Origin: Stegostoma tigrinum
Lineage: Eukaryota
DNA: 64,000 nucleotides
Assembly: GCF_030684315.1 (NCBI RefSeq)
Contig: NC_081391.1
Coordinates: 13,555,342-13,619,341, forward strand
Direction of reading: 5' to 3'
Position numbers and translations under genes: made by a program. Numbering within the stretch: position 1 is the first letter of the stretch; each line of letters begins with the position of its first letter. This document shows, in pieces, positions 1,928-62,397 of this stretch. The notes under the pieces are model-generated. The model saw only the letters and a program-made list of their open reading frames with translations, ran no database searches and was not told where the DNA came from.

Positions 1928-4900
1928 ATGGCCTCCCAGATCAGTCAGAACTATCACCAGGATTGTGAAGCTGCTGTCAACAAGCAGATTAATGTGGAGC
2001 TCACTGCCTCCTATCTCTATCAGTCTTTGGTGAGTGCTGTCTCTCGGGGTTAAACATATAAATCTGTTCTGTTGAAGTAAATTCTTTGCCTGGCCTCTAG
2101 TGAAGCTGACAATCTAGTAGATTGAGGTTTTGTGGCTCCTACCTAAATATCAGTTCAGGATAGAGGTGGTGTTACTATCACGATGGTGTAGGATACTGAT
2201 GTATGTTAACTCAGGTCCCAGTTGGCCTTCAGTGGTATCTGGAGGGTAAAAGCCTCTTGCTTTTGTTTTCTTTCTGACACAAGTTTCCTGACTTCATTTG
2301 CCTGATCTCTGTGGTGGTCCTAAACAAACATGCTGATTTTTTTTAACACTGACAATAACAATAACTTCCCTGTTGCAGTGGCCCTTGTTAGTCTGAACAA
2401 ACCTGAAGCTAGTCTGTGACTAGCATCTGTTTTAAGTAGATCTCCTTCATTGAGGCTGACTTGGCTTTACTTGTATTTATTGAAGATGTGGGTGTGGCCT
2501 ATCCCGTCCCTACTGAGAGTTGATCTGCTGTGTGTGAGAAATGTTGGATCCCCACTCTGCCCCTTCTCCACCCCACCCCATGCTGGGGCTGCTGGAATGT
2601 GCTGAGGCTATTAGCCCAGTGACAGTGAAGGAATGGAGGTTGTTCCCATATCATTTAGCTTGACCTAAAACAAAATGTCCCCTCTATCCCAGTGGTGATG
2701 TGCTTGTGCCCTTCCAAGGAGTAGACTGTGCTTGGAAGGTATGTGTTGAAGTAACCTTGGTGAGTGCTGCAGGGGACCTGGTAGGTAATGGACTCTGAAA
2801 GGAGGTGGTGAATGCAGTCCCCATGAAGTGGGCTGCTCTGTCCTGGATGGTGTCTGCTTCTTGCATGTTGCAGGTCCCCTTCTCCAGACACATGGAGAAT
2901 ATTCATCTCTCTCTGGGCTTGTGCCTGTTGTGAGGAAGTTGTCTTGTAATGAGGACTAAGTCCCTATAAGCCTCACTTGGGAGGTGGGACAGCTTTATTG
3001 GTGATCCAGTGGTTGGGGTTTAATCACTGTGTCCCAACTCTGTTGGCACATGCTTCCCAAGGATAAAATCCCGACTATCTTCTGCCATGACGTGTAACTA
3101 CCCACTTAAACCAGAGATTTTTGCTTGCCTGACTGTGGTTTTTGGATTTGTGGATTAAAGTAACTTTTCAGGAGTCCTTCCCCAGAATGTAACTCTTAGC
3201 TGATGCTTCCAATAGTGACGATTAGCTCTTAAACCCTTACATCGAATTGTGAACATGACAGTTTAGATATGAGTCACATGGGCTGAAAGCCGACAGGATT
3301 TTTTGCCTGTTTGGGTTAAGTCAGGGCAAGTGCTTTTCCAGGTTACTGTTTTCACTAGTGACATTATCTACAGGCCACTGATATTTGACATTTGATCATT
3401 TGTTTCAGTCATGTGACTTGGTGCAAGTTTCTGACAGCCTGAGTTTGCACTATTTTTAGGCAGAGCAATAACCCACTGCTGCAACGATCCAAAGGCTGTT
3501 ACTGGGCAGGCTTTCCTTGGCATTATCTTAGTGCTAAACATCATACTGAAGATAGCGTACCCGTGTAGAGTTAATGTGTACACTTATGTCCAAATCTCAT
3601 TGATCCTGGGTTTGTAGAAAACATTCTCCCTACTATTCATTGACTAGAACAAGGTTCAACATCTTTTTTGAAAGTTTACCTGAAAGGCAAAACACAGTGC
3701 CTTGTGGCTCCTCCATCCTGTGTACATCCTGTACGCCAGCTCCTGGCACTTCCTGAAACCCTGTTCAACCAGTAACTTCATCCAATTCTGTTGGAGATTA
3801 ATGAATAGAAGCATGAATTCAGCTCTGTCTCTCCACAAAGGCTGTGCCAGGCACTCCTGAGCTAATCACCAGTAGATTCAAACCAAAATAAAACAGTATT
3901 TTTGGTTCCAGGAGGAAGCTGGACTGTTGTGATTTTGCCCAGTTGCTGGTGAATTGAACAACACTGGGTTCACAATCTGTTCAGTGTCTGACACATGAGC
4001 ATGCCTTCTGTCAGTTTGGTTTGAGTGCTCAAGTAGTCTTGTAGTTGAGAACTGCAATGGGGAGTGAGCCAGTGATGTCGAATGTAACTTGAACTTGTTC
4101 TTCCAGATGTCCTACTTTGCCCAAGACGATGTTGCCCTCCCCCATTTCTCCCAGTTCTTCAAAGATCAGTTCCAGGAGAAGCGGGAACATGCAGAAAAGC
4201 TGCTGAAATTCCAGAATCAGCGTGGCGGCCGAGTCCTCCTCCAGGATGTGAAGGTTGGGGTTGGGTGGTGGGGGAGTGCAGGGTGGAATGGCTGCTCTTG
4301 CGGTGTCATCTCCAGTGACAAGATTTTCAGATCCTGAGCGAGTGTGGAAAGTTCTTTTGCTTGGCTTCCCTGTTTGCTCTCCTCCATCTCCAGTGTTTCA
4401 GCATTTATACAAGCCTGACTTCCATCAAACAACCACCTCAGCCTCACCTGCTCAAAGGACAAGGAAAACCCCAGCCTGTCCAATCTCTCTCCTCACAATG
4501 GATTTTCTGTCTCGGGGAAACAACCTGGGGACCCTCACCAGCACCCCCTGCAGTGCTATCCTGTCCTTCTGACTAGCGAGGCCAAAGATAGAATGCAGCA
4601 GAGGCCGGAAGAACAATTTTCATAAAATGTGTTCAAAGGACTTGTCCCTGTGCTGTTCCTCACAACCCTGCCCCAAACTAACACATGTTACTTGGCCTAT
4701 GTCCCCTTTCACACACAGTTTGCCTTGTGTGAGCATTGAGGGATCGATGATCCTGTGTTTATTGTAAGCACATTACTGCCCCCGACAATGAATTCAAGTA
4801 ATGATGGTTCTGACCATGCCGCTCGGGCATGTATGAGGCCACAAGCACAAGTGAGACTTGAACATCAGCCTTGTCAACCGGAGCTTGGGACACTACCGCT

Positions 4901-6136
4901 ACTTCCCCCACAGCCCTTGGGATTCACTCATGAATATCCTTTTTAAGACTCCAGCAGATGGACACTGGTGCAAATGACTAATCTGGTACATATTTATTCC
5001 CTGTGGTACAAGGATATGTTCCTGAACTTCCGGCTTCAGGTCAAGGATAAATGGGGCAAGGTGAAAGGAGTCACCAAGTAGCTAATGTTTTCTTTATCTG
5101 GACTTCAGGGATGGCACAGTGGCTCAGTGGTTGGCACTGTTGACTCAGTGCCAGGGGTACCAGTTTGGTTCTGGCCCGTGACGAGAGTTTAAACGTTATC
5201 CCAAAGCATAGCATCCCCACACAGTAGAAAAGAAGATTGGCAACTTGAAATGCAGGTTACACGAACAGGGTGGGAATGGGACCAGATGGGATGCTCTTCA
5301 GCAGTTATGGTCTCAGTGGGGTGAATGGCCTGCTCCCATGCTGCAGGGATTCTGTTTCTGAAGCTTACCTGTCCTTCTCTCCATCCATAGAAGCCAGAGA
5401 GGATTGACTGGGGTAACAGCCTGCAGGCAATTCAGGTTGCCCTGAATCTGGAAAAGAATGTGAACCAGAGTTTGCTGGATCTACACCAACTCGCCACAGC
5501 CCAGACTGACCCTCATGTCAGCTTCACCTCCTCATTCACATCACTGCTAGACCCTCAAGGTAACGTTTCATTGGTTGGTCTGTGTGGATTGGAAATTCAC
5601 TGAAGTAACACTTTCCATCCATTACTTTCCTGAACTATTGTAACATTGATCACTTGGGATCATACTGATTACAATGAGGTATAAGGGGAATTTGATCTAT
5701 AATCTAGTGGAAGTGCTGAAATGACGTTGGCCACTGAGTTCTTCATTAGTATCATTGCAGTGGAATGATCATTGTCCATCACAATCCAACTCAGCTCCAT
5801 TTCACAAACAGCAAGATGGAGCAGCTGACATGTTGTCCTCACTGGCACAAATTCTCCAGGTGTTAGCTCGCTTTTCAGGGCTGTCCAGAGCTAGTCATGG
5901 CTAAGTCTGTCTTGCAGTGGGAATTCTGAAATTGTCGTGGATAGTATAAATGTACCAAGTGTCATATTCCTCTGTTGCAGCTGTGTGACTTCCTGGAGAC
6001 TCACTATTTGGATGAGGAGGTGGAGATCATCAAGCAACTTGGGGACTACATCACCAACCTGAAGCGCCTGGGAGCCCCTGAGAATGGGATGGGAGAGTAC
6101 CTGTTTGACAGGCTCTCCCTGGAGGACAGCAGTTAG
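1928..6136 (+). CDS. Ferritin subunit, L/M-chain-like, copy A (176 aa)
   Basis: Exons 1928-2029, 4107-4253, 5391-5516, 5981-6136, with phase-0 GT-AG introns and the canonical vertebrate ferritin exon layout. Protein runs [18 protein letters not shown]...[11 protein letters not shown]. The ORF is intact but has several private substitutions. Confidence 0.9.
2690..2900 (-). mobile_element. Ancient LINE (L2/CR1-like ORF2 C-terminal) relic in intron 1, shared by the array units
   Basis: Minus-strand translation [12 protein letters not shown] resembles the LINE ORF2 C-terminal motif (KLDxIQxxAARxI). It recurs near 18900, 25740, 43480 and 50100. Confidence 0.5.
5107..5350 (+). mobile_element. tRNA-derived SINE in intron 2 (orthologous copy in every unit)
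   Basis: gggatggcacagtggctcagtggttggcac A-box-like head followed by a degenerate B-box. Same position near 15040, 21470, 28505, 37210, 45785, 52888 and 61400. Confidence 0.65.
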
Positions 6137-11558: not shown

Positions 11559-14500
11559 ATGGCCTCCCAGATCAGTCAGAACTATCACCAGGATTGTGAA
11601 GCTGCTGTCAACAAGCAGGTTAATGTGGAGCTCACTGCCTCCTATCTCTATCAGTCTTTGGTGAGTTTTGTCTTGATGGAGTTGAAATTAAATCTATTCT
11701 GCAAAAATGAGCTGATCCTCTTGTTTCTAATTAACTTCATAGTCTTGTAGATTTGAGGAGTTTAAGTTTGCACCTTGAAAAATCATTTTGGGATAAATGT
11801 AATGCCCTTTGGTGACAATGGATTTTGATATTGATGTGCAGTATCTAATTCACCAGCTGGGATTGAGTGATAGATGGAGGGCAAATTGTTCTGTCAATTA
11901 TTTTACAATTTACTGCCAGGTCTCTGCCTGGTGGTAACTGTCGTTTTCCTCCCCAGAATTGACCAAACTTTACTAAAATTAGATGTAATGGTGTTGGGAG
12001 TTGTAGGCACCCCTTGGCTAGTCATCCTGTAACATTTTAATTTACCTTGATCACACTTAATTTGTGCTCTGATCCTAAATACACATGACAGTTTCCATTC
12101 TGTGATGGAGAATGATGGCAGTGACTGGCTTCTCTGAGCATATGCACTTGTAACTTGCATTGAGGAGGCCTCAGATGTGGACTAGTTGGCTTTCTGCATT
12201 CTCAGTTCATGAATGGACTGTTAGTGGCCAGGAAGTCACTTGTTGTCCATTCCTCCAATAGATCAATACCCTCCTGTGAGTGCATGCACAGGGTGTCTGG
12301 AATAACCTGAGGTCTTCACTTCACCAAAAAAGGTGAAGAATTGGAGTTTCAAATTCCCACGGTATGGGAAATAGTGCCTTTCTCCAGGGAGCACTGTGCC
12401 TATGGCCTCTCAAAATGGCAGGCTATAATGGTTTGTAAATGTTGAAGCAGCTTTTGAAGGCTGCTAGATACCTGGTAGATAGTGGACACTGGGAGTGCAT
12501 TCACTCACTCCCTTCAATGAGGTGGGCTGCTCTGTCCTGCATAGTGTCTACTTTGTGCATGTTGCAGCTCCACTTCTTGGGAAAAAGGGAGAATATTCAT
12601 CCCTCCATGGGGCTTATGTCTGAGAAGCATTCTCTTCCCACTCTGAGGATGAAATCCCTGTACCCTTCCCTTTAGCAGGTGGGAACAGCTATCACCAATA
12701 AGCCTGTTGGGTCTTAACTGTTAGTGGTGTCCCATATCAATTGGGCAGCATGTGCCCAAACAACCTACTATTGTATATCTGTGAGATGCAGCTACCCGAG
12801 AAAAGCCAGAGAAATTTACATGACTGTTTTTTGACAAAAGAAACTTCTCAGCCTGATCAGTTGGAACTAGATAACCTGCTCTAACAAGGTGTAGAGCTGG
12901 ATGAACACAGCAGGCCAAGCACCATCAGGGGGAGCAGGAAGGCTGATGTTTTGGGCCTGGACCCTTGAGAAATGGGGAGGGGAAGGGGTCCCTGAAATAG
13001 GAAGGGGTGGGGAGGTGAATGGATGAGGGATAAAGAAACAGGTGGTGAGGAGACTCCAGTCTGAGGTAAGGATGGAGCCAATCAAGTCAAGTGAGTTGAG
13101 TAGGCCTGTCCGTGGGGATGGGATTTGAGGTGGCGGGGGTCGGCGGGAGGTGGGGTGGTGTGGGGAAGTAGGTGGGAGGAAGGACGGACCAGTCGGGGAG
13201 GTGGGAACTAGCTGAGCTGTGATTGGGGGAAGGGAGATCTTTCAGCTTAAGTCCTCACTGATACCATTGGGCTGCAGGGTTCCCAAGCAGAATACAAGGT
13301 GCTGTTCCTGCAACCTTTGGGTGGCATTGGAGGCCCAGAATGAACATCAACTGTCCCCTCCTGCCCCTCTGAAGGGGAAGTAGTTTGTGACTGGGAGGTG
13401 CAGCTGCTGGTCACGAGCCCAGCATAGGCACTCCACAAAGTGGTGTCAAGCCTCTGCTCGGATTTCCTGATGTAGAGGAGGCCACATTAGGAGCAGTGGA
13501 TACAGCATACCTAACTGCAGGTGTGTAGGTCCACTTCATCTTGATGTGGAAGGTCTTGGGGCCTGGGATGAGGGGAGGTGTAGCACAATCTGTGTGGCAG
13601 GAAAAAAGCCCTGGCTAGTGGAATGTACAAGGGAATCAGTGGTCTCTCCAGAAGGCAGCTAAGGTTGGAGAGGTAAAACATGTCTTTGTCAGATTGTAGA
13701 TTGTATAAGTGCCAGAGGATGATGCACTGGGTCCTGGCATTGAGGTGGTACTGAAGGATGAGAGGATTCTGTTTTGGTTGTGTGAGGGATAAGATGCAAG
13801 ACCGGTTGTGTTTTTCTTCCACTAAAGGGAAGTTACGCTCCCTCGGAAAACGAGGACATCTGGGATGCCCAGGAGTAGAATGCCTCCCCTCGGGGCTGGA
13901 GGTGAAGGAATTGGATTAGGGGATGGCGTTTTCCTTCCACAGGAAGGTGGGTAAGGTGTATTCTAGGTAGCTGTAGGAGTCAGTAGGTTTGAAATATATC
14001 AAAGATTGATAGACAAACTTAAGGTTGAGGTAGAAGGCTCTAATGAATTAGAGGAACCGTTCAAGCTCCTTTGTGGGATGTAATGGAGGAAGATGTGGAG
14101 TTTATGGCCCATCTCCCTGTAGAAGGATTGTTCCACAAATCCTAACAGAAGCAGGCACAGCCTGGGCCCATGCACGTGCCTATGGCCACCCCCTTCCTCT
14201 GTAGGAGGTGGGAGGAATTGAAGGAGAAGTTAGGGGTGAGGATGAGTTGGCTAGTGGACAAGGTTGTTGGTGAATGGGGACCAGTCAGACCTGCAGGATG
14301 AGAGAAGCAGAGGGCCTTCGGCTATCTCCATGGGGAATGGATGAGGTTGGAGGCTGTGGGTGGGAGGTCATCTCCAGTGAAGTTGTAAATGGACTAGGAG
14401 ATGGTTTGGTGGTCAGGGGTGGAGTCATGATGAAGGGCGGGGTGGTAGGAGGTATCGGCTGCTCTTCCACACAAGTATATGTGGCACTCCAGCTCCTGGC

Positions 14501-22449: not shown

Positions 22450-22574
22450 TGTGGCCTGGAGTACTGTCTGCTTGTTCTGAATGCATTCCCCACTTCACCC
22501 TGGGCAACCCGTCTCCTTCCAGGGAGAAGAGGCTTGTAGCAAAGAATAATGGCTGTACCAGCTGAATGCAAATG

Positions 22575-22580
22575 AATAAA
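22575..22580 (+). terminator. Polyadenylation signal AATAAA (copy C)
   Basis: About 125 nt after the stop codon. Equivalents at 29646, 38337, 46939, 54029 and 62524; variant AATGAA in A (6264) and AGTAAA in B (16259). Confidence 0.7.
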
Positions 22581-24378: not shown

Positions 24379-24559
24379 AGGTCAAAGGTCATTCAGCAAT
24401 TCCATCATCCACCAGTTGTCAATTCTGGTTTCTGGATCCAATTCCCATCCTGCACTGATTGGACGTGGCAACTGATCAATTGATTAACAAGAGTGATTGG
24501 CCATCACTGATGATGTCATTTCCTGCTCAAAAAATGAGGGTCTTCTCCTGGAGTATAAA
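24379..24559 (+). promoter_or_regulatory. Proximal promoter of ferritin copy D
   Basis: Perfect DR1 24379-24391, two ATTGG, ATCAATTGAT, TGATGTCA, TATAAA 24554-24559. Confidence 0.75.
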
Positions 24560-24656
24560 TAGAGCCCAATGGCATTGCTATTTTAGGTGTAGCTGATTTT
24601 CTTTCTATATTTATAATTTGGTTTTGTTGGATAAGGAAAGCTGTTTCTATCACAAA

Positions 24657-32965: not shown

Positions 32966-33053
32966 TAGAGTCCCACGGGAGGCATGTTTACTGTTGCTCT
33001 TAACTTTGTCATTTTTGTGGTGAGGAAAATAAAGCAAGTGTTTCCTTTATAAG

Positions 33054-46610: not shown

Positions 46611-46813
46611 GTCTTGGATAGTATAAATGTACCAAGTGTCATATTCCTCTGTTGCAGCTGTGTGACTTCCTGGAGACTCACTATTTGGATGAGGAGGTGG
46701 AGATCATCAAGCAACTCGGGGACTACATCACCAACCTGAAGCGCCTGGGAGCCCCTGAGAATGGGATGGGAGAGTACCTGTTTGACAGGCTCTCCCTGGA
46801 GGACAGCAGTTAG
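42660..46813 (+). CDS. Ferritin subunit, L/M-chain-like, chimeric copy A'/C (176 aa)
   Basis: Exons 42660-42761, 44513-44659, 46068-46193, 46658-46813, GT-AG introns, intact ORF, AATAAA at 46939. Confidence 0.92.
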
Positions 46814-48742: not shown

Positions 48743-48923
48743 AGGTCAAAGGTCATTCAGCAATTCCATCATCCACCAGTTGTCAATTCTGGTTTCTGGA
48801 TCCAATTCCCATCCTGCACTGATTGGACGTGGCAACTGATCAATTGATTAACAAGAGTGATTGGCCATCACTGATGATGTCATTTCCTGCTCAAAAAATG
48901 AGGGTCTTCTCCTGGAGTATAAA
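48743..48923 (+). promoter_or_regulatory. Proximal promoter of ferritin copy D'
   Basis: Perfect DR1 48743-48755, two ATTGG, ATCAATTGAT, TGATGTCA, TATAAA 48918-48923. Confidence 0.75.
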
Positions 48924-49020
48924 TAGAGCCCAATGGCATTGCTATTTTAGGTGTAGCTGATTTTCTTTCTATATTTATAATTTGGTTTTGTTGGATAAGG
49001 AAAGCTGTTTCTATCACAAA

Positions 49021-52000
49021 ATGGCCTCCCAGATCAGTCAGAACTATCACCAGGATTGTGAAGCTGCTGTCAACAAGCAGATTAATGTGGAGCTCACTGC
49101 CTCCTATCTCTATCAGTCTTTGGTGAGTGCTGTCCCTGTGGGGTTGGAGTTACTTCTGTTATGAAGTGAACTGTTTTTTTTTTAAAACAAACTAGATTAA
49201 TACTCTTGTATAATAAAATGTGAGGCTGGATGAACACAGCAGGCCAAGCAGCATCTCAGGAGCACACGTTTAGCTTTTGTGCTCCTGAGATGCTGCTTGG
49301 CCTGCTGTGTTCATCCAGCCTCACATTTTATTATCTTGGAATTCTCCAGCATCTGCAGTTCCCATTATCTTTAACACTCTTGTAGACTTGTTTGTTTTTT
49401 TTTGTATCTCTCTTAGCTATTTCTTGATTCAGCGTAAATGTGGTGACAATGGGATATGATACTGATATGCAGCAACTGAGGCCCCAGTTGTCTCAATGAT
49501 ATATGGAGGGTGAAGCATCTTGTGATTTATCTTACAATTCCTTTTAGGGCTGTGATTGCCTATAACTGGCTGTGGCTCTCCATAATTTTCTAAACTACTG
49601 TCAAGCTTTGATCCAGATAACCATTGGCTAACTACCTTTTTAAATCTGCCTTGATGTATCTGCTTTAATTTTGTGCATGTAAATAAACAAACATACTGGT
49701 TTTGGTATTTACAATAAGGTGTTGTAGTAATTTGACAAATCAGATTTTTTTAAGCTGAACTGAAGTCCTTGAGGTAAGACAAGCTGCTCCCTGCTTAAGT
49801 AGGTCTCCGATATTATTTTGGCTTTCTGTGCTCTATATCATGAAGTGGGTTTGATCCATCACTTCACAACCTATAGAAAGTTGACTTGTTATAGGTGCCT
49901 GCCCCCCCCGACCCCCCCGCCCCCAAAAGGGGGCTGCTGGAACATGCTGAGGCTATTGACCCAGAGGTGAAGAAATAAATGTTCTTCCTTTACCATTTAA
50001 CCAGATAAAGAAACAAACTGGCTCCTCCCACCATGTGGTGGTGCCCCTGTGCCCTTCCAAGGAGTAGAATGTGTTCAGAAGGTGTTGAGGTCCCCTTGGT
50101 GAGTGCTGCAGGGGACCTGGTAGATAATGGACCCTGAAAGGAGGTGGTGAATGCAGTCCCCACGAAGTGGGCTGCTCTGTCCTGGATGGTGTCTGCTTCT
50201 TGCACGTTGCAGCTCCACTTTTCTCCAGACACATGGAGAATATTCATCACTCTCTGGGCTTGTGCCTATTGGAAGGAAGTCCTATCTAGGGACATGAGGA
50301 TAAAGTCCCTATAACTACCTTTTTGGGAGGTGGGAATAGCTTTAACTAGTGAACCAATTGTTGGGTTTTAGTCACTGACCACTGTCCCAACTCAATAGGG
50401 AATCTTGTGTGCTGATAATAAAATCCCCACTATTCTTCACCTTCTACAACTTAACTACCCAATTAAACCACTTTTTTAACTTTTAGTTTGTATTTGAGGA
50501 TTAAACTAACTTCTCACCAGGATTCTACCAAAGAACAACTTCTTCTTTTGATGTCAATAGACTGTTCCTAATCAGCAGTAACTTGTTGGATTGTGAATCT
50601 CAGTTGAAAAGTGAGTGAAATGAGTGGGGAAAACAATAGTTTAGCCTCTTGGAATAAGCTAAATTGAGCTCTCCAGCTTTGAACAAGTCAACAATCTATA
50701 GGTCACACAGTCCTGCAGATACCATTAGGTCTCCTGAACATTTGATCTTGTTTCAGTTGTGAATTTTAATGCTTTGCTTTGCAAGCTTCTGGCAACCTGA
50801 GTGCATGGCATAAACAAATGTGATAAACTATTGCTGCAACAAGCCAAAGGCTGTCACTGGGCAGGCTCTCCTTTAGCACCAAGATTCTCCTAATCGCCCT
50901 CATTCTCCTGCATACTGCAAACAGCATCTCTTGTAGAGCTGCTTTATGTAAAAAAAAAAAACAGTACATCTGATCCAATTGGTTGCAGAAGACCTGTACC
51001 TACCAGCTATATTAATGTCCAGCATCTGCATGTTACTCGAGCACCAGGGGAGACATGTAATGACTTGAAGTTGCCTGACCCTGTGCACATCCTGCATTCC
51101 AGCTCCTGGCACTTGTTTAAACCCTATTCAGTTACCACTTCCATCCATTTCTGGAGGCTAGATGGTAGAAATGTGCTTTCAGCTTTTCTATCCAGGCTGT
51201 GCCAGACACCCCCCCCCCCCAACCAATTCAGCAGGGTTTACAAACCAAAACACTGAAATTGTATCTTACATGGAAGAAGCTGGGGTTGTTTGGTTTCCTC
51301 CAATTAAAGGAGCTGCTGGCTAACTTTGCAACACCATTAGTGAACATTGTAAGGTGTCAACAATTTTCAGCTGATTGAATCATTAGTTTGCTTTAGACTA
51401 AACCAGTCCTCCAGTTCTGAGCATGAGAAATGGGGTCAATGATGTGTTTAATGGGCTTTAACATGTTATCTCCCTTCTAGATGTCCTACTTTGACCGGGA
51501 TGATGTTGCCCTCACCCATGTCTCCCGGTTCTTCAAAGATCAGTCCCAGGAGAAGCAGGAACATGCAGAGAAGCTGCTGAAATTCCAGAATCGGCGTGGA
51601 GGCAGAGTCCTCCTCCAGGATGTGAAGGTTGGAGTTTGGGAGGGGGGCATGGTGTGGTGTGCAGGAATGGTAGCTCATGGTGTTTTCTGTTAGTAGTGAC
51701 AAGATTTTCATGTGGTAAAGGATGTGAAGGTTGGAGTTGGAGAAGGCAGGCAGTGGGGAGGAGATGTGAGAAATGGCTGCTTATGGTGTGGTTTCATGTC
51801 CTGAAAGAAAGTGAAAACTGTTTTGTTTGGCTCCCCTCCTTTTGATGAAAAGGAAAGAAATCCTAGAAACAAGCCTCTTGGCTCCCCTCCACCTGCTGCT
51901 TTCCCCCACACCCACCCCCCCACCCCCCCACCCCCCCACCCCCCCACCCCCCCACCACCATGCTGACCCGATAAACACCAAACCACATTAATCCCATTTA

Positions 52001-53901
52001 CTGCACTTGGTCTACAGCCCCCATGGCATTGGTAGTTGTCTAGAAGCTGCTTAAATATTGCAGCAGGAGATGCCTCCCCCACTGCCCCACCCCCCCCATA
52101 TTATTTTTCCACTACCCTCTCGGCAAAGGATTCCTCTAACCTGCTTACTCCTCACATCAGTGCCCTCTGGTCTTAATGTCTCTTTCTCCCCACCCCCTCA
52201 TAGCAGACACTCCCCATCTACTATCAAGACTCCACACTAATCAAATGCCATCACATAAACATCTCAACTGACTTCACTCTGAGGATTGGAGTGAGAAATC
52301 TGATCTCTCCTTTTAATGGATTTTTCAGTCTTGGGGCAACATCCTGGTGACCCTTCCAGTGCCATTGTGGCTCTGGTCACCACACAGTATTCCACCTTTG
52401 CATGGCCAATGCTGCAAAGTTTGTGACAAGACTGGAGTCCCTGTACTGCGCCCCAAGAAATGGGGAAGGGCATTGTGGAAGCCAACTTCCCCACCCTGTC
52501 TACACTTATGGATCCTTGAAATATCTCTAGTCTTGTTCTCTTGGTTCCTTTTATTGTCAACATATTGCTGTCCCTTCAATGAATTAAATAGTAGTGATGC
52601 TTTTGATCATTCAGGTCAGTCCTATATGAAGCCATAAGCACAAGTGGGACTTCAACCTGGGCCTATGCTCCAAACCTAGGGACAGTACCACTGCATTACG
52701 AGCCCTGGGATTAAGTTGTGAATATCCTCCTTGGGATGCCATCAGATGGGCACTGACAATTCTGTGCAAACATAACTCTTATCCCCACTATGACCTGGTT
52801 GTGAATTGACTTTCCTTTCGGAAGAAGCAAATAGGGCTAGGTGAAAGCAATTCCTTAAATAACTGATCTGTTCTTCCTAAGGACTTCAGGGATGGCGGTG
52901 GTTAGCACAACTGCATCAGTGCTTGGGGCACAAGCTTAATTCTGGAGTTGACATGTTCACCGCATCTCTACATAGGCTTCCTCCCACAGTCCAAAGATGT
53001 GCAGGGTAGGATAGGCCATGAAAAATGCAGGATTACATGGCTGGGGCTAGGACCAGGTTGGATGCTCTTCAGATGGTCATGAGTGGGCAGAATGGCCTGA
53101 TGCATGCTGCAGGGATGTTGTTTCTGAGGCTTACCTGTCCTTCTTTCCATCCTCAGAAGCCAGAGAGGGATGAGTGGGGTAACAGTCTGCAGGCGCTGCA
53201 GGTTGCCCTGGATCTGGAGAAGAATGTGAACCAGAGTTTGCTGGATCTACACCAACTCTCCACAGCCCAGACTGACCCTCATGTAAGCTTCACCACCTCC
53301 TCATTCTCATCACTGCTAGACCCTCAGGGCAACACTTCATTGGTTGGTCTGTGTGGATTGGAAATTCACAGGTGTGCACTGATCACTTTGGGTCCATGCT
53401 GCTGAGCAGTTGTTACATGGTGATCAGTAATGAAGTGAAATGGGAGTTTGGAAGGCAATCCATTGGGAGTGATGAAGTGATATTGGCCATTGAATTCCCA
53501 TTCTCACTTGGGAGCATTACAGTGGAATGATCATTGTCCATCACCATCCAACTCAGCTACACTTCACAAACAGCAAGATGGAGCAGCTGACATCCTATTG
53601 TCTTCACTGGCACAGATTTTCCAGGTGTTAGCTAAATTTTCAGGGCTGTCTGGAACTAGTATGGTAAAGCCTGTTTTTCAGTGGGAATTCTGAAATTGTC
53701 TTGGATAGTGTTAATGCACCCAGTTGTCATATTCCTCTGTTGCAGCTGTGTGACTTCCTGGAGACTCACTATTTGGATGAGGAGGTGGAGATCATCAAGC
53801 AACTTGGGGACAACATCACCAACCTGAAGCGCCTGGGAGCCCCTGAGAATGGGATGGGAGAGTACCTGTTTGACAGGCTCTCCCTGGAGGACAGCAGTTA
53901 G
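49021..53901 (+). CDS. Ferritin subunit, L/M-chain-like, copy D' (176 aa)
   Basis: Exons 49021-49122, 51481-51627, 53157-53282, 53746-53901, GT-AG introns, intact ORF (Y to N change in GDNITN). Confidence 0.9.
49211..49370. mobile_element. Palindromic Penelope-derived mini-element in intron 1 of D' (paralog of 24846-25005)
   Basis: Same sequence and same 14-bp flanking duplication. Confidence 0.85.
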
Positions 53902-56900
53902 TGTGGCCTGGAGTACTGTCTGCTTGGTCTGAATGCATTCCCCACTTCACCCTGGACAACCTGTCTCCTTCCAAGGAGAAGGGACTTGGAGCAAAGAATG
54001 TAATGGCTGTACCAGCTAAATGGAAATGAATAAAATCATGTATTGATCTTGCTTATTGTCCATCATTCAGAGCTCTGAATACTTTGGGTGATAGCTCTTG
54101 CTTGAAGCCAATTCGTTTTCTGTCATTTGATTGGTCCAATTTCTAATTGGATTAGGCAACCCTTCACAGAATAGCTCACTATCCCCACATTAGAATGTAA
54201 CTCGATGGAGTGTTTTTTTTTGGTTAGTCCTGTGGAAATTGAAGGTGTTTCTCCTCCAAATAGGATAAGGTTGGGATTTGTCAATTGTGGCATTCTCCCT
54301 CTTCTAGAGGACAATTAGTGCGCTTCTGGATATGGTGGGTTCAACTGTAGCTCAAAGAAATTGTCTTCCTCTGGTGACAGGAAGTTCCCACACCTTCTAA
54401 ATAGACTTCTCTACCCAGCCTGATAGAATTTGGGATAGTGGTGTTCAATTGCACATTTCCCTTAATCTCTTCCCCGCCTCAGCCATCCTGCGTACTCAAT
54501 TATTGCCTGAATGATGACAGCAACACAAAGTGAAGACAGCCCTTTATCTACTGACCCAGCTGCCTGATCACAAAGGTCTAAAGGAAGAGGCCCAGCAGGC
54601 TCTGATTTCAATCCAGCTGGCGGAAGCAGCAGAGGTGTGAAACAATCTCGACTGCCTGGTATATCTCTTTTTTTTTTTTTTCCCCCATTGGGCCCTACCC
54701 TGACCAATAAACACTATATTCTCAGTATTGTTACTTTTGGTTTCACCATCCCAAACTGTGGCTGGCGCTCTTTCTCTTCCGCTTCTCCTCACTTCTCTCA
54801 CCCCGCCCTCCCCCCACCCAACCTTTTCTATCCACGTGCCCCCACCAGCCTAAACATTCACCACAGCCCCTTTCCCTGGGAGTCAGCTCCAGACGTTCAC
54901 CTGAACTGTACTGGATTATAATGCAGGGCCTCATTGCTGCTTACAGCAGGATAACAGGGACCTGGGAAGAACACAGCAATGCACCTGGTTAAATGCTGCT
55001 GTTTGATTGGCTCTTGTTGCTAATGCCAGCATTGAGCACACTAAGCTGCTCCTTTGGTTCCTCTGAGCTTTCCCCCATGGTGAACATTACTCCTGATGCA
55101 GGTTGATTGGGTGAAATCACATTGAAGGAGCAAAGTGGCTCGGAGGAGACATGGAGATGCTGACTTTCCTTTACGGCTGCTTCTTTTATCTTTCAAGGTG
55201 TCAGAGATCATGGGTTCGTGAGGGGGCTATCAGAGACATCCTGAGGATTGTTCCAGGGAGTTTTGTAGCGAGTGCACACTGCAGCCTTCATCGAGGTTGG
55301 CTGGGGTGGGGGGGGGTGCTGCAGAGTCAAAAGGCACTCAACATATTTGTTCCACCACATAAAGCAATTTATTTTTGGTGACAATAAGTCTTGGCTACAG
55401 TAACCCTCAAGTGCAGGAAGGGACCATTAGGCCCATTAAATCTGCATCGACCTTCTGAACAGCATCCTCCTTAGACCCAACCCCTTTGCCTTAACTCCAC
55501 ATTTCCCACGGCTAATCGACCTAGCCTGCAGGCCCCTGCTCACGATCGACAATCTGCAAATCGTTGGGCTGTGTGAGGAAACTCAAGCACCTGGAAGAAA
55601 TCCACGCAGTCCATCACCCAGGGGGAGAATCGAACCTGGGTCCCTGGCACTGAGGCGCCAAAACATTCTAAAGTACCAAAGGAAAGGAATACACTGCGGC
55701 AAACTACGCCATGGGAATAGACTCTGCAGCGCAGCCCGAACTTGCAGACCAGGTTTTCATAAACTGTGTAGTGCCATTTGCCTACGTTTGGCCCATCTTT
55801 CTCTAAACCGTTCCTTTCCATGTAAATCTCCAAATGTCACTTAAATGTTGTAATTCTATCCACCTCGACCACTTCCTCTGGCAGCTCGTTCCATACACGC
55901 ACCACCCTCTGTGTGACAATGTTGTCACTCACGCCCCTTTTAAATCTTGCCGCTCTCCCCTCAAACCGGTGCCCTCTAGTTTTGGACTCCCCTACCCTGT
56001 CCCAGCATGCTTTTTATATACAGTCAATCTTGAGTGTGCCAATGGCAAGGCTACATTTAGTGCTCAGCAACTGTTACACTTCAGGAGGTGGTGATGAGCT
56101 GCTTATTACAGTCCACCTGGTGTCGGAGAGACCGGAATGATGCTGCTGCTGCTGCTGTTGCTGAGGAGGGGCTCCTGGGATTTTCATTCACAAACAGGGA
56201 TATTGTTCCAAGTCAGGATGGTGACAGAGTTACATGGAGCTGCTTGAGTGTCGTTGGTGCTGCCTCCAGCAAGAACATTGTAAACTATTCCAGCACTACT
56301 CCCAATTTCAGCCTTATTGAGGGTGGGCAGGTTTTGGAAACTCAGGAGTTGAGTACTTCCTGACAGAATTCCCAGCATCTGAATTCCCAGTTTCTGAGCT
56401 GTACCATCTAGAGAACGCAATGTAAACAGAACCAGAAATTCTTCACTTGGAAACATGCTGGGGTGAATCACTAGTTCTACTTCAAACAACGAAAAACGAA
56501 ACTGGGAGACAGAAATGTTCAACGTGCAATACATTTCTAGCAGCAACTGAAACATAGAGGCCTGAGGCCTACTGTGTAGAAGAGGCACTCAGCACATTTA
56601 GCGTTTTGCTTTTCAAACTGGGCTTCAAGGTCAAGGTCAGGGAGATCACATCAGATGCAGATTGGACCCACAAAGTACATCAGTTGCCTGTTTTAGATGA
56701 TCCAAAAGCACATTATTTGTGTTGCTGCACAGAAATAGGAAAATGTTCTGATCAACCAAATCGAGCCATTTTTCAAAGAGCTCCAACACCAACGTTCAAA
56801 AATTATGACGACTAATCCCTCAGAATAGCAATCCGACAGAATTCTGCAAATCTGTGATGAATGTGTCTTAACGCACAACCTCAGATACAGACGTGAAGTT

Positions 56901-56962
56901 TTAGAGTATATTTTATTCTCATTTTCAGGGAGATGTCCTTCCAGAATTTGCACTTGTGCGGG

Positions 56963-57149
56963 AGGTCAAAGGTCATTTCAGCAATTTCATCATCAACCAG
57001 TTGTCAATTCTGATTGGTTTTTTGACCCGATTCCCATCCTGCACTGATTGGATGTGGCAGCTGATCAATTGATTAACAAGAGTGTTTGGCCATCACTGAT
57101 GATCTCATTTCCTGCTTCATAAAATGAGTGTTGGCTCCTGGAGTATAAA
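56963..57149 (+). promoter_or_regulatory. Proximal promoter of ferritin copy E' (variant)
   Basis: Perfect DR1 56963-56975, ATTGG, ATCAATTGAT, TATAAA 57144-57149. Confidence 0.7.
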
Positions 57150-57237
57150 TAGAGTCCCAGGGCAGGGATGTTTACTGTTGCTTTTAGCTGTGTCATTTTT
57201 CTGGGGAGGAAAATAAAGCAAGTGTTTCCTTTATAAG

Positions 57238-60200
57238 ATGGCCTCCCAGATCAGTCAGAACTATCACCAGGATTGTGAAGCTGCTGTCAACAAGCAGATT
57301 AATGTGGAGCTCACTGCCTCCTATCTCTATCAGTCTTTGGTGAGTGGTGTCTCTGTTGGGTGAAACATACTTCTGTTCTGTTGAAGTGAACTCTTCCCCT
57401 TGGATGTAATTAAGTTGTCTATCTTATAGACTGAGTTTTGTGGCTCCTCCCTCTTTCTCAATGCAGGATGAGTGTGATGTTACTGTAACAATAGTTTGGT
57501 GTCTAATGTTACTCTAACTTGGGTCCCAGTTGGTTGTCAGTGAGATGTGGAGGGTGGAGTGTTCTTGTAGTTACTTGCCTGTCCCATGATGGTGCTGTGA
57601 CTGGTGGTAATTATAGCTTCCTGTGGCTGTTTGAAACTTGAGGGAACAAAATTAAAAATGAATTGGGACTCACCATTGTGGGAATGGAAGCACCATCAGC
57701 TAGTCACTGCTTTTCTTGTATCCTTGTTTCTATTTGAATCTTGTGGGGATCTGAAGTAAACCTGCCAATTGTGACTGAGAATCTTGGTTTCCTATTGCAA
57801 TCAGCTTAGAATAGGCTTGTTCTAGCCCTACAGTGATGGGCCGAGAGGTGGCAAATGGAGTTTAATGCAGACAAGTGTGAGCTGATGCACTTTGGTAGGA
57901 GTAACCGGAAGGCAAAGTACAGGGCTAATGGTAAGATTCTTGGTAGTGTAGATGAGCAGAGAGATCTGTGTCGATAGGTAGACACGGATTGTTCAAAGTT
58001 GCCACCCAGGTTGACAGGGCAATTAAGGCAGTGTTTTGTCTTTTATTAAGAGGATTGAGTTCTGGAACCAAGAGGTTATGGTGAAGCTATCCAAAAACTC
58101 TGGTGCATACAGTTCTGGTCACTGCATTATAAGGATGTGAAGCTTTGGAAAGGGTGTAGAGGAGATCTGCTAGGATGTTTCCTGGTATGGAAGGAACATC
58201 TTATGAGGAAAGGCTGAGGGACTTGAGGCTCTCTTCATTAGAGAGAAGAAGGTTGAGAGGTGACTTAATTGAAACATATAAAATAATCAGAGGGCTAGTT
58301 CGGGTGGATAGGGAGAGCCTTTTACCTAGATGGTGATGGTGAGCATGAGGTGGGGTAGCTTTAAATTGAGGGCTGATAAATATAGGACAGATGTCAGAGG
58401 TAGTTTCTTTACTCAGTAAGGGAATGCAATGCTTTGCCTGTGACAGTAGTAGATTTGCCCACTTTAGGTACACTTACGTCATCATTGGATAAGCAAATGG
58501 GCGTACATGGAATAGTGTAGGTTAGATGGGCTTGAGATCAGTATGACAAGTCGGCACAACATCAAGGGCTGAAGGGCCTGCACTTGGCTGTTATGTTCTA
58601 TGCTCAGATTAAACTGGGTGAGGTTGTGACTCTTATCTGATTAAGCAGATCTCCATTTGAAATCTACCTTGCTTTTCTTCATACTCATGAGGTGGGTGTG
58701 GGCTGTCTGTATGTCAAGTGTTGGAGCTTTTCAAAGGCACAGCACTGCCATGGGGCTGAGAATGTACTGACCCAGTGACTCTGGTTAAAAAGTTTATGCC
58801 CATTGTATTTGGCCTGATTGTAAACTAACTGGACCCTCTTTCCCCAGGTGGGGTGCTTGTGCCCTTCCAAGGGGTAGAAGGTGTTTACGTAACCTTGGTG
58901 TTTGTTGCAGGGTGCTCTCTGGGCTTGTCCCTGTCACCAGGAAGTCCCCCTCCTGATGAGGATCAAGCCCCTGTCAGCCCCAGTTTGGGAGGGGGAACAG
59001 CTTTCATTGAGCCAGCAGTTGGGTTTTAATCACTGACCCATTGTCCCAACACACCTTGTAAGCATGTGCCAGGAATGAAATCCTTACTATTCTACATCTT
59101 CTAACTGCACATTTAAATCGCAAAGATAAATTGTGCTTGTGTTTGCATTTGAGAATTGAAGCAACTTTTTTCAGCAGGATTTGTAAGAATGTGCTTGTTA
59201 CTGGCTGCTTCCAATAGCAGACCTGCTAAACCTCAATACATTGAATTGTGAACATCCTGGTTTAGAAATCTACAGGACTTTGCCTGTTGGATTAAGTCAA
59301 CAGTGGTTTTTCCAGGTTAATGAGGGATCTTGTCTGGAGAGTAGTTGATCTGCAGATCACTGTCATATTTGTCATGTGATCAGTTTGTTTTGTCAGTCTT
59401 TGTTTCATGTGTAATGGTACAAGTTGCTAGCAGTCTGAGTCAGTGCAGCTGTTTCAGATGCAACAATAAACTGTTGCAGTAACAACCCAAAGGCTGTCCT
59501 TAGGCAGGCTTTCCTTGGCAGATTCTTGGAGCTAACATCCTTCATTCATCTCCTCATGCCCCCCCCAGCCACCCCAATACTGCAGTTCTTGTCAAACTAA
59601 TAGATACAGTGCATCCAATTGCATTGATCCTGACTCAGCAGAAAATGTGCTTCTTCCAAGCTGTTAATTGCAGTGTCTAGGATCTGTTTTCTGGTCTTTG
59701 CCAAAGCAGCAATACAGTGCCCTGCAGCTGTTCTATTGGTGTACATCCTGCACTCCAGCCCCTGGCATTTCTTGAAACCCGATTCAATCAAAGATTTATC
59801 CCATTTCTGGTGGAGGTTAATCAGTAAAAACATCAATTCACACTTGTTCTCACCAAATGCTGTGCCAGACCCTCCTGGGCAATTTGCCTGGAGTTTCAAA
59901 CCAAAATAAAACACATGGTATTTACAGCTTACTGGAGGAAGCTGGGATTGTTTTGATTTTTCCAATTCAACAGCAACTGCTCAAAACTGGGTTCTGAATT
60001 GTTAATGCATCAGGTACTTAACAGCTTATTGTCAGTTTGATTTTGAGAATGCTCAAGTAGCCCTGTAGTTCTGAACTGAAATTGGCCCATGACTTGTTAA
60101 TGGACTTTACCTTGTTCTCCCTTCCAGATGTCCTACTTTGACCGGGACGATGTTGCCCTTCCCCATTTTTCCCAGTTCTTCAAACATCAGTCTCAGGAGA

Positions 60201-62397
60201 AGTGGGAACATGCAGAGAAGCTGCTGAAATTCCAGAATCAGCGTGGAGGCGGAGTCTTCCTCCAGGATGTGAAGGTTGGAGTTGGGTGGGGTGGGGAATG
60301 GGATGGTAATGGCTGCTCTTGTGGTGTGGTTTCAAGTCAGTGACAAGGTTTTCATTTGAGTCAAAACTTTGTTCAGCCTGTTTGATCTCCTTTTTGAAGC
60401 CAGTGTGGAAAGAAGCCCTTTGGCCCACCATGTCTATGCTGACCCCACAAACACGAACAACATTAATCCCACTTACCTGCCCTTGGTCCACAGGCCACTG
60501 TCCTGGCACTAAGTATTTGTCCAGCTGGACCCTAAACTGATCTGGAGTAGCTGTCTCCACCACCATCCAACCCTTTATGTGGTTCATCTCATATTTCAAA
60601 CAGCCCCTCAGAGGGGTGGGGGTGGGGTGAAGTTTCCTCCAATCCCCTCTAACCTGCTTACTCCTCAAACCTGGTTTCTCTCCTGTCTTGGTGTCTGCCA
60701 TGGGAAGACATTCCATCAACTGGCCACTCTCTATTCTTCAATTACATCAGGTCACTCCCTCAGCTGTTCCTGCTCCACAGAAAATCCCAGCCTATCTAAC
60801 CTCCAATCAATGGATCTTGGGCAACAGCCTGGGGAACCTCACCAGCTTCCCCCTGCAGTGCCATCCTGTCCAGGTGACTGGTGAGGCCAAAGAGGAATAA
60901 TGTGGTGACCAGAAAAACAAACTGAGGAGACTGGTCCCCTTCCTGTTCCACCACACCCAACTAATAGAGGTTGCTTGCCCTCTGTCACTGTTACACCCTG
61001 TTGACCTTGTCTGAACTTTGAGGGATCTATGGTTGTGGGCCTTTCTTAACTGTTAGCAGCACAACACACTTTGCAAACACCTCGCTGTCCCTTGGATGAA
61101 TTAAATAGCCGTGATGTTTCTGATCATCCTGCTCAGGCATGTATGAAGCCACCAGCACAAGTGGTACTTGAACCTTGGCCTTGTCAGCCAGAGACAGGGG
61201 CACTACCACTGTACCATGACAGCATTTAGGATTCACTTGTGAATATCCTCGCAATTCCATCAGATGGACCCTGATGCAAATCTTGTCATTAACCCCCACA
61301 ATGACCTGTTATTCACCTTCCTCCTTCAGATCAAGGACCGACAGGCAAGGTGAAAGCAATTCTGAAGGAACTGTTCTTCAGCTGTGCTCCAGGGCTCCCT
61401 CAGGGGCTAGCAGTGTTCTCAGTGCCAGGGACACAGGTTTTGATCTGGCCTCTGGTGAGGGACTGGTGTTTACATGTCCTCCCCTTGTCTGCGTTGGTGT
61501 CCTCATAGTAAAAGAGGATTGGCCATCTGAAATGCAGGGTTACAGGAATAGGGTGGGAGAAGGACGAGTTGGGATCCTCTTCAGAGCAGTTACAGACTGA
61601 TCCACGTTGTAGAGATTCTGAAGCTTAACAGTCCTTCTTTCCCTCCTCCAGAAGCCAGAGAGGGATGAGTGGGGTAACAGCCTGCAGGCAATGCAGGTTG
61701 CCCTGGATCTGGAGAAGAATGTGAACCAGAGTTTGCTGGATCTACACCAAGTTGCCACTGCCCAGGCTGACCCTCATGTAAGCTTCACCTCCTCATTGAC
61801 TTCACTGCTAGGCCCTCAGGGCAACACCTTCATTGGTTGGTCTTTTGTGGATTAGAAATTCAGTTAGACTTTGTTTTTGTGCAGATGACATGGATCACTT
61901 CAGATCCATAGTGATTACAAAATCATTGCTGAGCAGTTGACTCCAAGTATGTATTTTAACTTGTAAACCTGTGGGGAGGACTGAGGGGATATTGGCGACT
62001 GAATTCTCATTCAGGGCCACTGCAGTGGAATGACTTTTATCCATCACAAGTCAACTCTGCTCCAGTAAATAAACAGCAAGATGAAGCAGCTAAAAAGCAG
62101 TTGTCCTCTTTGCACAATTTCTCCAGGCGTTGGCTCTAGTCATCCCTGACAATCTCCCTCCATATGCATGTTTTTCAGTGGGGATTCTGAAGTTGTCTTG
62201 GATAGTGTTGATGTACCAAGTGTCATATTCCTCTGTTGCAGCTGTGTGACTTCCTGGAGACCCACTATTTGGATGAGGAGGTGGAGATCATCAAGCAACT
62301 TGGGGACTACATCACCAACCTGAAGCGCCTGGGAGCCCCTGAGAATGGGATGGGAGAGTACCTGTTTGACAGGCTCTCCCTGGAGGACAGCAGTTAG
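57238..62397 (+). CDS. Ferritin subunit, L/M-chain-like, copy E' (176 aa)
   Basis: Exons 57238-57339, 60128-60274, 61652-61777, 62242-62397, GT-AG introns, intact ORF (EKWEH variant), AATAAA at 62524. Confidence 0.9.
57828..58601 (+). mobile_element. CR1 LINE 3' fragment in intron 1 of copy E'
   Basis: Paralog of 33646-34420. Confidence 0.9.

What the first reader, a model, noticed from the sequence alone, without database searches (positions are those of the whole stretch)
1928..62397. Tandem array of at least eight intron-containing ferritin genes
Seen: eight head-to-tail 4-exon ferritin genes fill the window at 6-10 kb spacing. Five have intact canonical ORFs, and both window edges lie inside repeat units, so the array probably continues. 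Known: most vertebrates have only a few intron-bearing ferritin loci (H, M, L), and the extra mammalian copies are mostly retrocopies. Inference: a lineage-specific dosage expansion of one subunit type, which could mean a high-abundance specialised role such as bulk iron storage, secretion or a structural use.
Basis: partly seen in the sequence, partly recalled or inferred. Interest (0 to 1): 0.85.

Follow-up and report, generated by a model that had tools for sequence, protein, structure and literature searches.

The report
Shark egg ferritin gene array
This is a real stretch of a very large, briefly reported shark cluster of iron-storage (ferritin) genes, and all eight copies here encode a subunit with a broken iron-oxidising site and no iron-sensing switch, which points to bulk, probably egg-specific, production of a light-chain-like partner subunit.

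Summary
Confirmed: eight head-to-tail four-exon ferritin genes at 6.2-9.6 kb spacing, five fully canonical, both window edges inside repeat units. Best hits are zebra shark (Stegostoma) proteins at 98-99%. The expansion is not lineage-specific. A Greenland shark preprint reports 334 ferritin copies, mostly in three clusters syntenic with white shark, the largest expressed specifically in ovary. Not found in print: all eight copies have Lys at ferroxidase ligand 62 and Glu at 141, as in light chains, with the fold intact. They have no IRE. They belong to a pan-shark K62 clade (100/99) that shares a contig with a second, catalytically intact expanded clade in 8 of 8 species checked. Orthology to tetrapod L is unresolved (AU p 0.44-0.46). 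Exons 1 and 4 are homogenised: 0-2 synonymous differences in 53 sites against about 20% non-coding divergence. Best reading: iron-independent mass production of an L-like subunit for oocyte H/L-type cages. Expression and activity of these copies are untested.

The parts
1928..6136 (+). Ferritin copy 1 (lineage A); exons 1928-2029, 4107-4253, 5391-5516, 5981-6136; intact, canonical; K62/E141; ATTAAA at 6312
11559..16131 (+). Copy 2 (lineage B); exons 11559-11660, 14838-14984, 15402-15527, 15976-16131; frame open, GC donor at intron 2 (splicing doubtful); AGTAAA at 16259
17721..22449 (+). Copy 3 (lineage C); exons 17721-17822, 20259-20405, 21736-21861, 22294-22449; frame open, GC donor at intron 3, promoter lost (spacer sequence joined to the 5' UTR at about 17683), seven changed codons in exon 1 including Y34N; probable pseudogene
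24657..29516 (+). Copy 4 (lineage D); exons 24657-24758, 27113-27259, 28774-28898, 29361-29516; 1-nt deletion in exon 3 gives a frameshift (real or a consensus error)
33054..38210 (+). Copy 5 (lineage E); exons 33054-33155, 35951-36097, 37465-37590, 38055-38210; intact, canonical
42660..46813 (+). Copy 6; exons 42660-42761, 44513-44659, 46068-46193, 46658-46813; intact, canonical; chimera with a copy-1-type 5' part and a copy-3-type 3' part
49021..53901 (+). Copy 7 (lineage D'); exons 49021-49122, 51481-51627, 53157-53282, 53746-53901; intact, canonical
57238..62397 (+). Copy 8 (lineage E'); exons 57238-57339, 60128-60274, 61652-61777, 62242-62397; intact, canonical
1724..1840 (+). Conserved promoter of copy 1: 83-bp core (1724-1806) with inverted CCAAT boxes and E-boxes, then TATAAA at 1835. 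Present in 7 of 8 copies (TATAAA also at 11456, 24554, 32960, 42567, 48918, 57144); missing in copy 3
   Evidence: core differs at 4-7 of 83 sites between lineages, against 26-36 of 85-97 sites between TATA and ATG
1841..1927 (+). Stretch from TATA to ATG (holds the short 5' UTR): A+T-rich, unconstrained, no iron-responsive element (same in all copies)
22294..39813 (+). First unit of a recent 24.3-kb-period duplication (3' end of copy 3, copies 4 and 5)
   Evidence: 98 of 7984 and 150 of 9319 aligned bases differ from the second unit
46658..64000 (+). Second unit of the duplication (3' end of copy 6, copies 7 and 8), running off the window
46608..46717 (+). Approximate crossover zone in copy 6: informative sites switch from copy-1 type (to 46608) to copy-3 type (from 46614), at the conserved end of intron 3 and start of exon 4
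40702..42194 (+). Decayed LINE retrotransposon fragment (reverse transcriptase) upstream of copy 6; related pieces at 16-1470 (+), 9093-10493 (-), 33646-34423 and 57828-58605
   Evidence: RVT_1 E 6e-9 and 1.5e-11 on 2 of 4 ORFs tested

Best explanation
The window is an internal 64-kb piece of the large ferritin gene cluster of a carpet shark, almost certainly Stegostoma (inferred from best hits). SHOWN: the eight genes encode one cytosolic, light-chain-like subunit. The iron-bridging Glu62 is Lys, Gln141 is Glu, the helical fold and the three-fold channel acids D131 and E134 are kept, and there is no IRE. The genes belong to an old pan-shark clade that lies beside a second expanded clade with an intact ferroxidase centre. 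Exons 1 and 4 are far more alike than their introns, and one copy is a chimera that switches at exon 4. INFERRED: the genes are transcribed in bulk from a conserved CCAAT/E-box/TATA promoter, most likely in oocytes. They are translated regardless of iron status. The K62 subunit cannot oxidise iron quickly and co-assembles with the catalytic clade into H/L-type 24-mers, where it adds stability and mineral storage for the egg's iron reserve. Copy number supplies dosage. Gene conversion between exons and unequal crossover, filtered by purifying selection, keep the subunits interchangeable and turn the array over.
For: K62 in 8 of 8 copies and E141 in 8 of 8. A review passage names E27/E62/H65 and E62/E107/Y34/Q141 as the two iron sites and says E62K+H65G abolishes activity (PMC6929972). 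Another passage says L chains replace the ligands with a salt bridge and that heteropolymers load iron best (PMC4642653). All 10 tetrapod L chains aligned have K62 and E141. The K clade has support 97/99, or 100/99 with 8 centre columns masked, and Heptranchias and Stegostoma members are still 85% identical. K and intact-centre clades share a longest-contig length in 8 of 8 species that had a K-clade hit on a multi-megabase contig. AlphaFold model of P0012: pLDDT 88, five helices, TM 0.92-0.96 to solved ferritins. No IRE by Rfam at either threshold or by pattern, and 4 of 4 leaders folded no better than shuffles. Promoter core 5-8% divergent against about 30-42% for the TATA-to-ATG stretch. 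Ovary-specific expression of the largest Greenland shark cluster. Ferritin abundant in fish and amphibian eggs, per passages and cited titles in PMC1488847. Exons 1+4: 0-2 synonymous differences in 53 sites in all 6 lineage pairs, against 9.5-11.6 expected, P 3e-5 to 6e-4 per pair.
Against: No expression, protein or activity data exist for these copies. The ovary result is from another shark order and does not separate K62 from E62 copies. The inactivating mutant in the passage is the double E62K/H65G, whereas these copies keep H65, Y34, E27 and E107 (7 of 8 keep all four), so residual activity is not excluded. The cavity acids that L chains use for nucleation are only partly present (D/H57, Q60, E61, E64), which weakens a nucleation role. 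Three of 8 copies are damaged, and exon 2 has pN/pS near 0.5, so constraint is partly relaxed. The six pairs in the synonymous test are not independent. Exons 2+3 show only a weak deficit (P 0.03-0.17 in 5 of 6 pairs). Co-assembly was not tested. No K62-clade protein appeared among the listed hits from rays, catsharks, sawshark or horn shark (lists capped at 120).
Confidence: 0.55

Rival explanations
1. The K62 subunit forms iron-poor homopolymers with a non-storage role, such as a stable bulk cage protein of the egg, a carrier for another ligand, or a protective structural protein.
For: Ferroxidase ligand lost, cavity acids only partly kept, and no iron control of translation. Variation is concentrated in exon 2, which carries helix B (pN 0.052 against 0.004-0.025 in the other exons). 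IRE-less atypical ferritins with E62K and unknown function are described in sponges (PMC8395497 passages).
Against: The iron-entry residues D131 and E134 are conserved in all 7 K-clade proteins aligned. The genes sit beside an intact-centre array in 8 of 8 species checked, as expected for partners.
Confidence: 0.2
2. The copies are mostly by-products of array turnover: relaxed or decaying duplicates in which E62K spread by conversion without a function of its own.
For: 3 of 8 copies are damaged. Position 62 is also changed in scattered copies of the intact-centre clade (K in P0025; N in P0200, P0176 and P0121). Glu to Lys needs only one base change.
Against: The K62 clade is kept across four shark orders at 78-93% identity. 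pN is 0.004-0.05 against about 0.20 non-coding divergence. The promoter core is conserved.
Confidence: 0.12
3. The array serves somatic iron or oxidative-stress handling (liver, red cells) rather than the egg, like the tandem fthl27 expansion of the hadal snailfish.
For: 14 mostly tandem fthl27 copies, highly expressed in most tissues and protective against ROS in cells, are reported in PMC10746142 (passages). The promoter motifs seen here are generic.
Against: The only expression statement found for a shark cluster is ovary-specific. Somatic ferritins normally carry an IRE (established knowledge). A subunit without a working centre is a poor stand-alone antioxidant.
Confidence: 0.1
4. The array is inflated by assembly error (false duplication of haplotypes).
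For: The 24.3-kb block is duplicated at only 1.2-1.6% substitutions, which two haplotypes could give. The copy-4 frameshift lies in a G run.
Against: Five lineages differ by about 18-22% in alignable non-coding DNA (for four of them; for copy 3), and copies 1 and 6 differ by 5% with a chimeric end. Differences in the young block are mostly substitutions (98 and 150) rather than indels (12 and 16). Their low Ts/Tv (0.69-0.76) resembles that of old pairs (0.80-0.94). Many species hold many such proteins. At most copies 7-8 could be artefactual.
Confidence: 0.05

Closest known systems
Shark FTL/FTH1 clusters in Greenland shark and white shark (bioRxiv 10.1101/2024.09.09.611499, section 6 read in full)
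   Same: Many full-length ferritin genes in large clusters, ancient and syntenic across shark orders; two types counted (155 'FTL', 179 'FTH1'); ovary-specific expression of the largest cluster.
   Different: That section gives no active-site, IRE, promoter, phylogenetic or conversion analysis and labels copies by human orthologue. Whether its 'FTL' copies equal the K62 clade is untested. The preprint's supplements could not be seen and may bear on this.
Tetrapod ferritin light chain (mammalian FTL; amphibian and reptile 'light chain, oocyte isoform')
   Same: K62 and E141, leucine-lined C-terminal helix (L169, L173), four exons, no leader peptide.
   Different: E27, Y34 and H65 are retained here, while 8 of 10 L chains aligned have lost E27 and 8 of 10 have lost H65. 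No IRE. Multi-copy array. E141 arose inside the shark clade (3 orectolobiforms have E; Heptranchias, Mustelus, Cetorhinus and Carcharodon have Q), so it is convergent. Orthology is unresolved.
Fish and frog ferritin M (middle) subunit
   Same: Best structural matches are frog M ferritins (69-72% identity). Database names are often 'middle subunit-like'. Same 176-aa length.
   Different: M chains keep a complete ferroxidase centre (E62, Q141 in 6 of 6 aligned). These copies do not.
Teleost tandem fthl expansions (hadal snailfish fthl27, PMC10746142 passages)
   Same: Tandem amplification of a vertebrate ferritin gene for dosage.
   Different: Recent, 14 copies, broad tissue expression and a ROS role, against an ancient array of L-like subunits here.
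Concerted evolution of tandem lysozyme c genes in ruminants and rodents (PMC3141428 passages)
   Same: Tandem dosage genes homogenised within a species. That coding exons are homogenised while introns diverge in ruminant stomach lysozymes is recalled, not shown in the passages read.
   Different: Different gene family. Here homogenisation is strongest in the first and last exons.

Membership tests
Eukaryotic cytosolic ferritin (PF00210) | Ferritin domain, four-helix bundle plus short E helix | tested here: met
   P0012 (98% identical to copy 6): Pfam E 6.7e-36; helices 11-39, 46-72, 93-120, 124-154, 163-172; TM 0.92-0.96 to ferritins
Eukaryotic cytosolic ferritin (PF00210) | Acidic three-fold iron channel (D131, E134) | tested here: met
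   D131 and E134 in all 7 K-clade rows; exon 4 of the window copies is 98-100% identical to copy 1
Eukaryotic cytosolic ferritin (PF00210) | Assembles a 24-mer cage and stores iron | not testable with these tools
   needs protein work
Ferritin H or M chain | Complete di-iron centre E27, Y34, E62, H65, E107, Q141 | tested here: not met
   K62 and E141 in 8 of 8 copies
Ferritin H or M chain | Groups with the FTH1 or M clades in trees | tested here: not met
   shark FTH1 (P0068, P0108) sits in a separate clade, 99-100/98; the K clade is outside the H and M groups
Ferritin L chain | Lys62 replacing the bridging glutamate; Glu141 | tested here: met
Ferritin L chain | Loss of further ligands (E27, H65) | tested here: not met
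   E27 and H65 kept in all 8 copies
Ferritin L chain | Cavity nucleation glutamates at H-numbered 57, 60, 61, 64 (definition recalled) | tested here: inconclusive
   D or H57, Q60 (R in copy 3), E61, E64: two or three of four are acidic
Ferritin L chain | Orthology to tetrapod FTL | tested here: inconclusive
   K+L 71/48 with all columns; K+A 86/84 with the centre masked; AU p 0.443 and 0.456
Ferritin L chain | No ferroxidase activity; K62-E107 salt bridge | not testable with these tools
IRP-regulated vertebrate ferritin mRNAs (H, M, L) | IRE hairpin in the 5' UTR | tested here: not met
   0 Rfam hits at gathering score; 5 weak hits at E<=1, none an IRE; none of 7 loose pattern hits lies in a leader; 4 of 4 leaders unstructured, z -0.57 to 0.82
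Secreted yolk or mitochondrial ferritins | N-terminal targeting leader | tested here: not met
   N-terminus aligns flush with cytosolic chains; no predictor run
Shark ovary ferritin clusters | Tandem full-length genes of a family shared across shark orders | tested here: met
Shark ovary ferritin clusters | Synteny with the reported cluster; ovary-specific expression | not testable with these tools
   no flanking genes in the window; no shark genome or RNA-seq collection available
Processed retrocopies | No introns | tested here: not met
   three introns in every copy

The most novel reading that the evidence does not exclude
Sharks evolved their own two-subunit ferritin, independently of the tetrapod H/L system. 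An ancestral egg-ferritin array split into a catalytic clade and a non-catalytic K62 clade, carpet sharks then added a second L-type change (E141), and the IRE was dropped so that tens to hundreds of genes can load giant eggs with iron regardless of iron status. This would be a convergent origin of the ferritin light chain, still part-way along (E27 and H65 kept), held uniform by exon-limited gene conversion.
Probability: 0.35. Interest if true: 0.72.

Novelty: new variant of a known kind. Interest (0 to 1): 0.48.

Why it matters
The array as such is not new: huge shark ferritin clusters were reported in one paragraph of a 2024 preprint, and RefSeq models many copies. What this window adds is their nature. 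If the reading holds, sharks devote a large gene cluster to an iron-independent, L-like subunit. That gives a natural intermediate for how light chains arise from catalytic chains, either as the oldest true L orthologue or as a convergent one. It gives a testable account of maternal iron supply to very large shark eggs. It also gives a clear vertebrate case where conversion tracts follow exon edges and seed unequal crossover. And it warns that 'heavy' and 'middle' annotations of these shark genes are misleading.

Tried and rejected
IRE or other RNA elements: none. The mir-3926, mir-4776 and mir-31 hits are far below their gathering scores and are treated as chance matches to repeats. tRNA genes: 0. 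Other protein genes: none among the 49 stop-to-stop ORFs of 110 aa or more, judged by eye apart from four LINE-like ORFs scanned by Pfam. L-chain orthology: my first tree printout seemed to give K+L 98.9/98, but re-rooting had shifted the labels; the correct support is 71/48, so the claim was dropped. Low Ts/Tv as a sign of assembly error: rejected, since old pairs are similarly low. mRNA-templated (cDNA) conversion: disfavoured, because the 5' UTR is not homogenised while the intron-3 acceptor end is. Species-resolved copy counts: the cluster-member look-up could not be made, so cluster sizes such as 45, 76, 127 and 180 are not per-species counts. No complex prediction was run, because ferritin pairs would pass by likeness to solved cages. 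Literature: a second Greenland shark preprint (10.1101/2025.02.19.638963) and the catshark genome paper (PMC11979771) had 0 ferritin mentions; PMC13701976 had two irrelevant ones. The search for oocyte-promoter papers returned 0, so the link from CCAAT/E-box promoters to oocytes is recalled only. The search on vertebrate H/M/L phylogeny returned 2 irrelevant papers. Most subscription literature is not in the library. Metagenome and viral contig collections were unchecked; they are unlikely to bear on a shark locus.
Full report
OBSERVATION. The four exons of copy 1 (102, 147, 126 and 156 nt) find eight complete units on the + strand between 1928 and 62397, spaced 6162-9631 bp apart. Copies 1, 5, 6, 7 and 8 have GT-AG introns and an open 176-aa frame. 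Copy 2 has a GC donor at intron 2. Copy 3 has a GC donor at intron 3, seven changed codons in exon 1, and no promoter. Copy 4 has a one-base deletion in exon 3. Both window edges align to internal repeat units. The spacers hold decayed LINE pieces (RVT_1 on 2 of 4 ORFs tested) and no tRNA or Rfam gene.

SOURCE AND PRIOR REPORT. Exon searches rank Stegostoma tigrinum proteins first (98% for exon 2, 100% for exon 4). Whole exons of the window match exactly only Stegostoma proteins among 161 named hits; the species is an inference from this. Many shark species hold many such proteins, and 90% clusters list up to 180 members, though these could not be resolved by species. The Greenland shark preprint 10.1101/2024.09.09.611499 (section 6 read in full; supplements not seen) reports 155 FTL and 179 FTH1 copies. 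About 80% lie in three clusters syntenic with white shark, and the largest is expressed specifically in ovary. So the expansion is known and ancient.

WHAT THE PROTEIN IS. In H-chain numbering all eight copies have E27, K62, H65, E107 and E141, and seven have Y34. A review passage lists E62 and Q141 among the iron ligands and says E62K with H65G abolishes ferroxidase activity (PMC6929972). Another says L chains replace the ligands with a salt bridge and help mineralisation in heteropolymers (PMC4642653). All 10 tetrapod L chains I aligned have K62 and E141; all 13 H and M rows have E62 and Q141. A model of P0012 (98% identical to copy 6) is a normal ferritin subunit, pLDDT 88 and TM 0.92-0.96, and D131/E134 are kept. 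Loss of fast iron oxidation is therefore inferred, not measured: the tested mutant was a double one, and H65 is retained here. There is no leader peptide.

FAMILY HISTORY. I used 70 named proteins of the 120 hits and 91 of the 93 new hits. Of these, 84 near-full-length rows plus 7 window copies went into a quick tree, where the K62 proteins form one clade of 17 rows (SH-aLRT 93). A hand-picked 46-row tree gives this clade 97/99, or 100/99 with eight centre columns masked. It spans Heptranchias, Mustelus, Cetorhinus, Carcharodon, Stegostoma, Chiloscyllium and Hemiscyllium. A second shark-expanded clade keeps E62 and Q141 (100/99). In 8 of 8 species with a K-clade hit on a multi-megabase contig, both clades show the same longest-contig length, which suggests one chromosome. 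E141 is confined to the carpet-shark members, so it is convergent with tetrapod L. Whether K62 is shared by descent with L is open: K+L 71/48 unmasked, K+A 86/84 masked, AU p 0.443 and 0.456. The support labels printed were shifted by re-rooting and should be ignored. Position 62 is also altered in a few copies of the intact clade, so the change arises easily.

REGULATION. No IRE was found by Rfam at gathering score (0 hits), at E<=1 (5 unrelated weak hits), or by pattern (7 loose hits, none in a leader). Four of 4 leaders fold no better than shuffles. The TATA-to-ATG stretch differs at 26-36 of 85-97 sites between lineages, so it is unconstrained. The 83-bp core upstream differs at only 4-7 sites and holds inverted CCAAT boxes and E-boxes before a TATAAA, in 7 of 8 copies. 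That such promoters drive oocyte genes is recalled; my search for it returned nothing. Abundant ferritin in fish and amphibian eggs, and IRE-less ferritin mRNAs in schistosomes, appear in passages and cited titles of PMC1488847.

ARRAY DYNAMICS. There are five old lineages, in the order A B C D E A' D' E'. Among copies 6, 2, 7 and 8, alignable non-coding DNA differs by 17.9-22.0%. Yet synonymous divergence is 0.000 in exon 1, 0.035 in exon 4, 0.097 in exon 2 and 0.116 in exon 3. For exons 1+4 each of 6 pairs has 0-2 differences in 53 sites against 9.5-11.6 expected (P 3e-5 to 6e-4; pairs not independent). For exons 2+3 the deficit is weak in 5 of 6 pairs. Identity falls off at the ATG and a few bases into intron 1, and extends about 16 nt into the intron-3 acceptor and 26 nt past the stop. 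Gene conversion limited to conserved exons is the simplest cause; strong selection on codons is not formally excluded. Copy 6 is copy-1-like up to 46608 and copy-3-like from 46614, placing an unequal crossover at the homogenised exon-4 region. The block 22294-39813 recurs at 46658-64000 with 98 of 7984 and 150 of 9319 substitutions. This could be a young duplication or, less likely, two haplotypes; it affects at most two copies.

MECHANISM. Most likely (0.55): bulk, iron-independent synthesis of an L-like subunit in oocytes, which co-assembles with the neighbouring catalytic clade to build the egg's iron store, with copy number supplying dosage. Shown: gene anatomy, residues, absence of an IRE, clade structure, homogenisation. 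Inferred: tissue, loss of activity, co-assembly. Rivals: a non-storage homopolymer (0.2), decaying by-products (0.12), a somatic stress role as in snailfish fthl27 (PMC10746142 passages; 0.1), assembly inflation (0.05).

NOVELTY. The cluster is already reported. The K62, IRE-less character, the two-clade organisation and the exon-limited conversion were not found in searches (listings only, plus the passages cited); the library lacks most subscription papers. It works like an L chain, but membership of the L family is unproven and it fails the H/M test. Verdict: new variant of a known kind, interest 0.48.

Noticed in passing
protein hits P0059, P0148, P0029, P0181: A second shark-expanded ferritin clade with an intact centre and a characteristic M144, also seen in a ray (Pristis); a few members carry K or N at position 62.
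   Followed up: partly
   Followed up: no
P0001-P0008: Database models of 205-721 aa with two or three ferritin domains are probably annotation fusions of neighbouring array copies.
   Followed up: no
P0212 and P0052: A UniRef 'Ailuropoda' ferritin groups inside squamate L chains, and a 176-aa 'Aeromonas veronii' ferritin on an 866-bp contig looks vertebrate-like; both are probably mislabelled or contaminant records.
   Followed up: no
window 17683: Copy 3 lost its promoter through a junction joining spacer sequence (homologous to 7387-8122) to the 5' UTR; its exon 1 has since drifted 8.8% while its exon 4 is still identical to copies 4 and 6.
   Followed up: partly
exon 2 of all copies (e.g. 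44513-44659): Amino-acid variation between copies is concentrated here (pN 0.052, pS 0.097), including position 63 (R/Q/W) next to K62; relaxed or diversifying selection not distinguished.
   Followed up: partly
whole array: Ts/Tv is low (0.69-1.13) in both young and old comparisons; unexplained.
   Followed up: partly
8224-8425, 24845-25005, 30277-30468, 49210-49370: A roughly 190-bp interspersed repeat occurs in both orientations and gives the sub-threshold miRNA-like Rfam hits at 8231 and 30345.
   Followed up: no
51903-51956 and 7815-7897: C-rich tract in intron 2 of copy 7, and a 40-bp two-copy tandem repeat.
   Followed up: no
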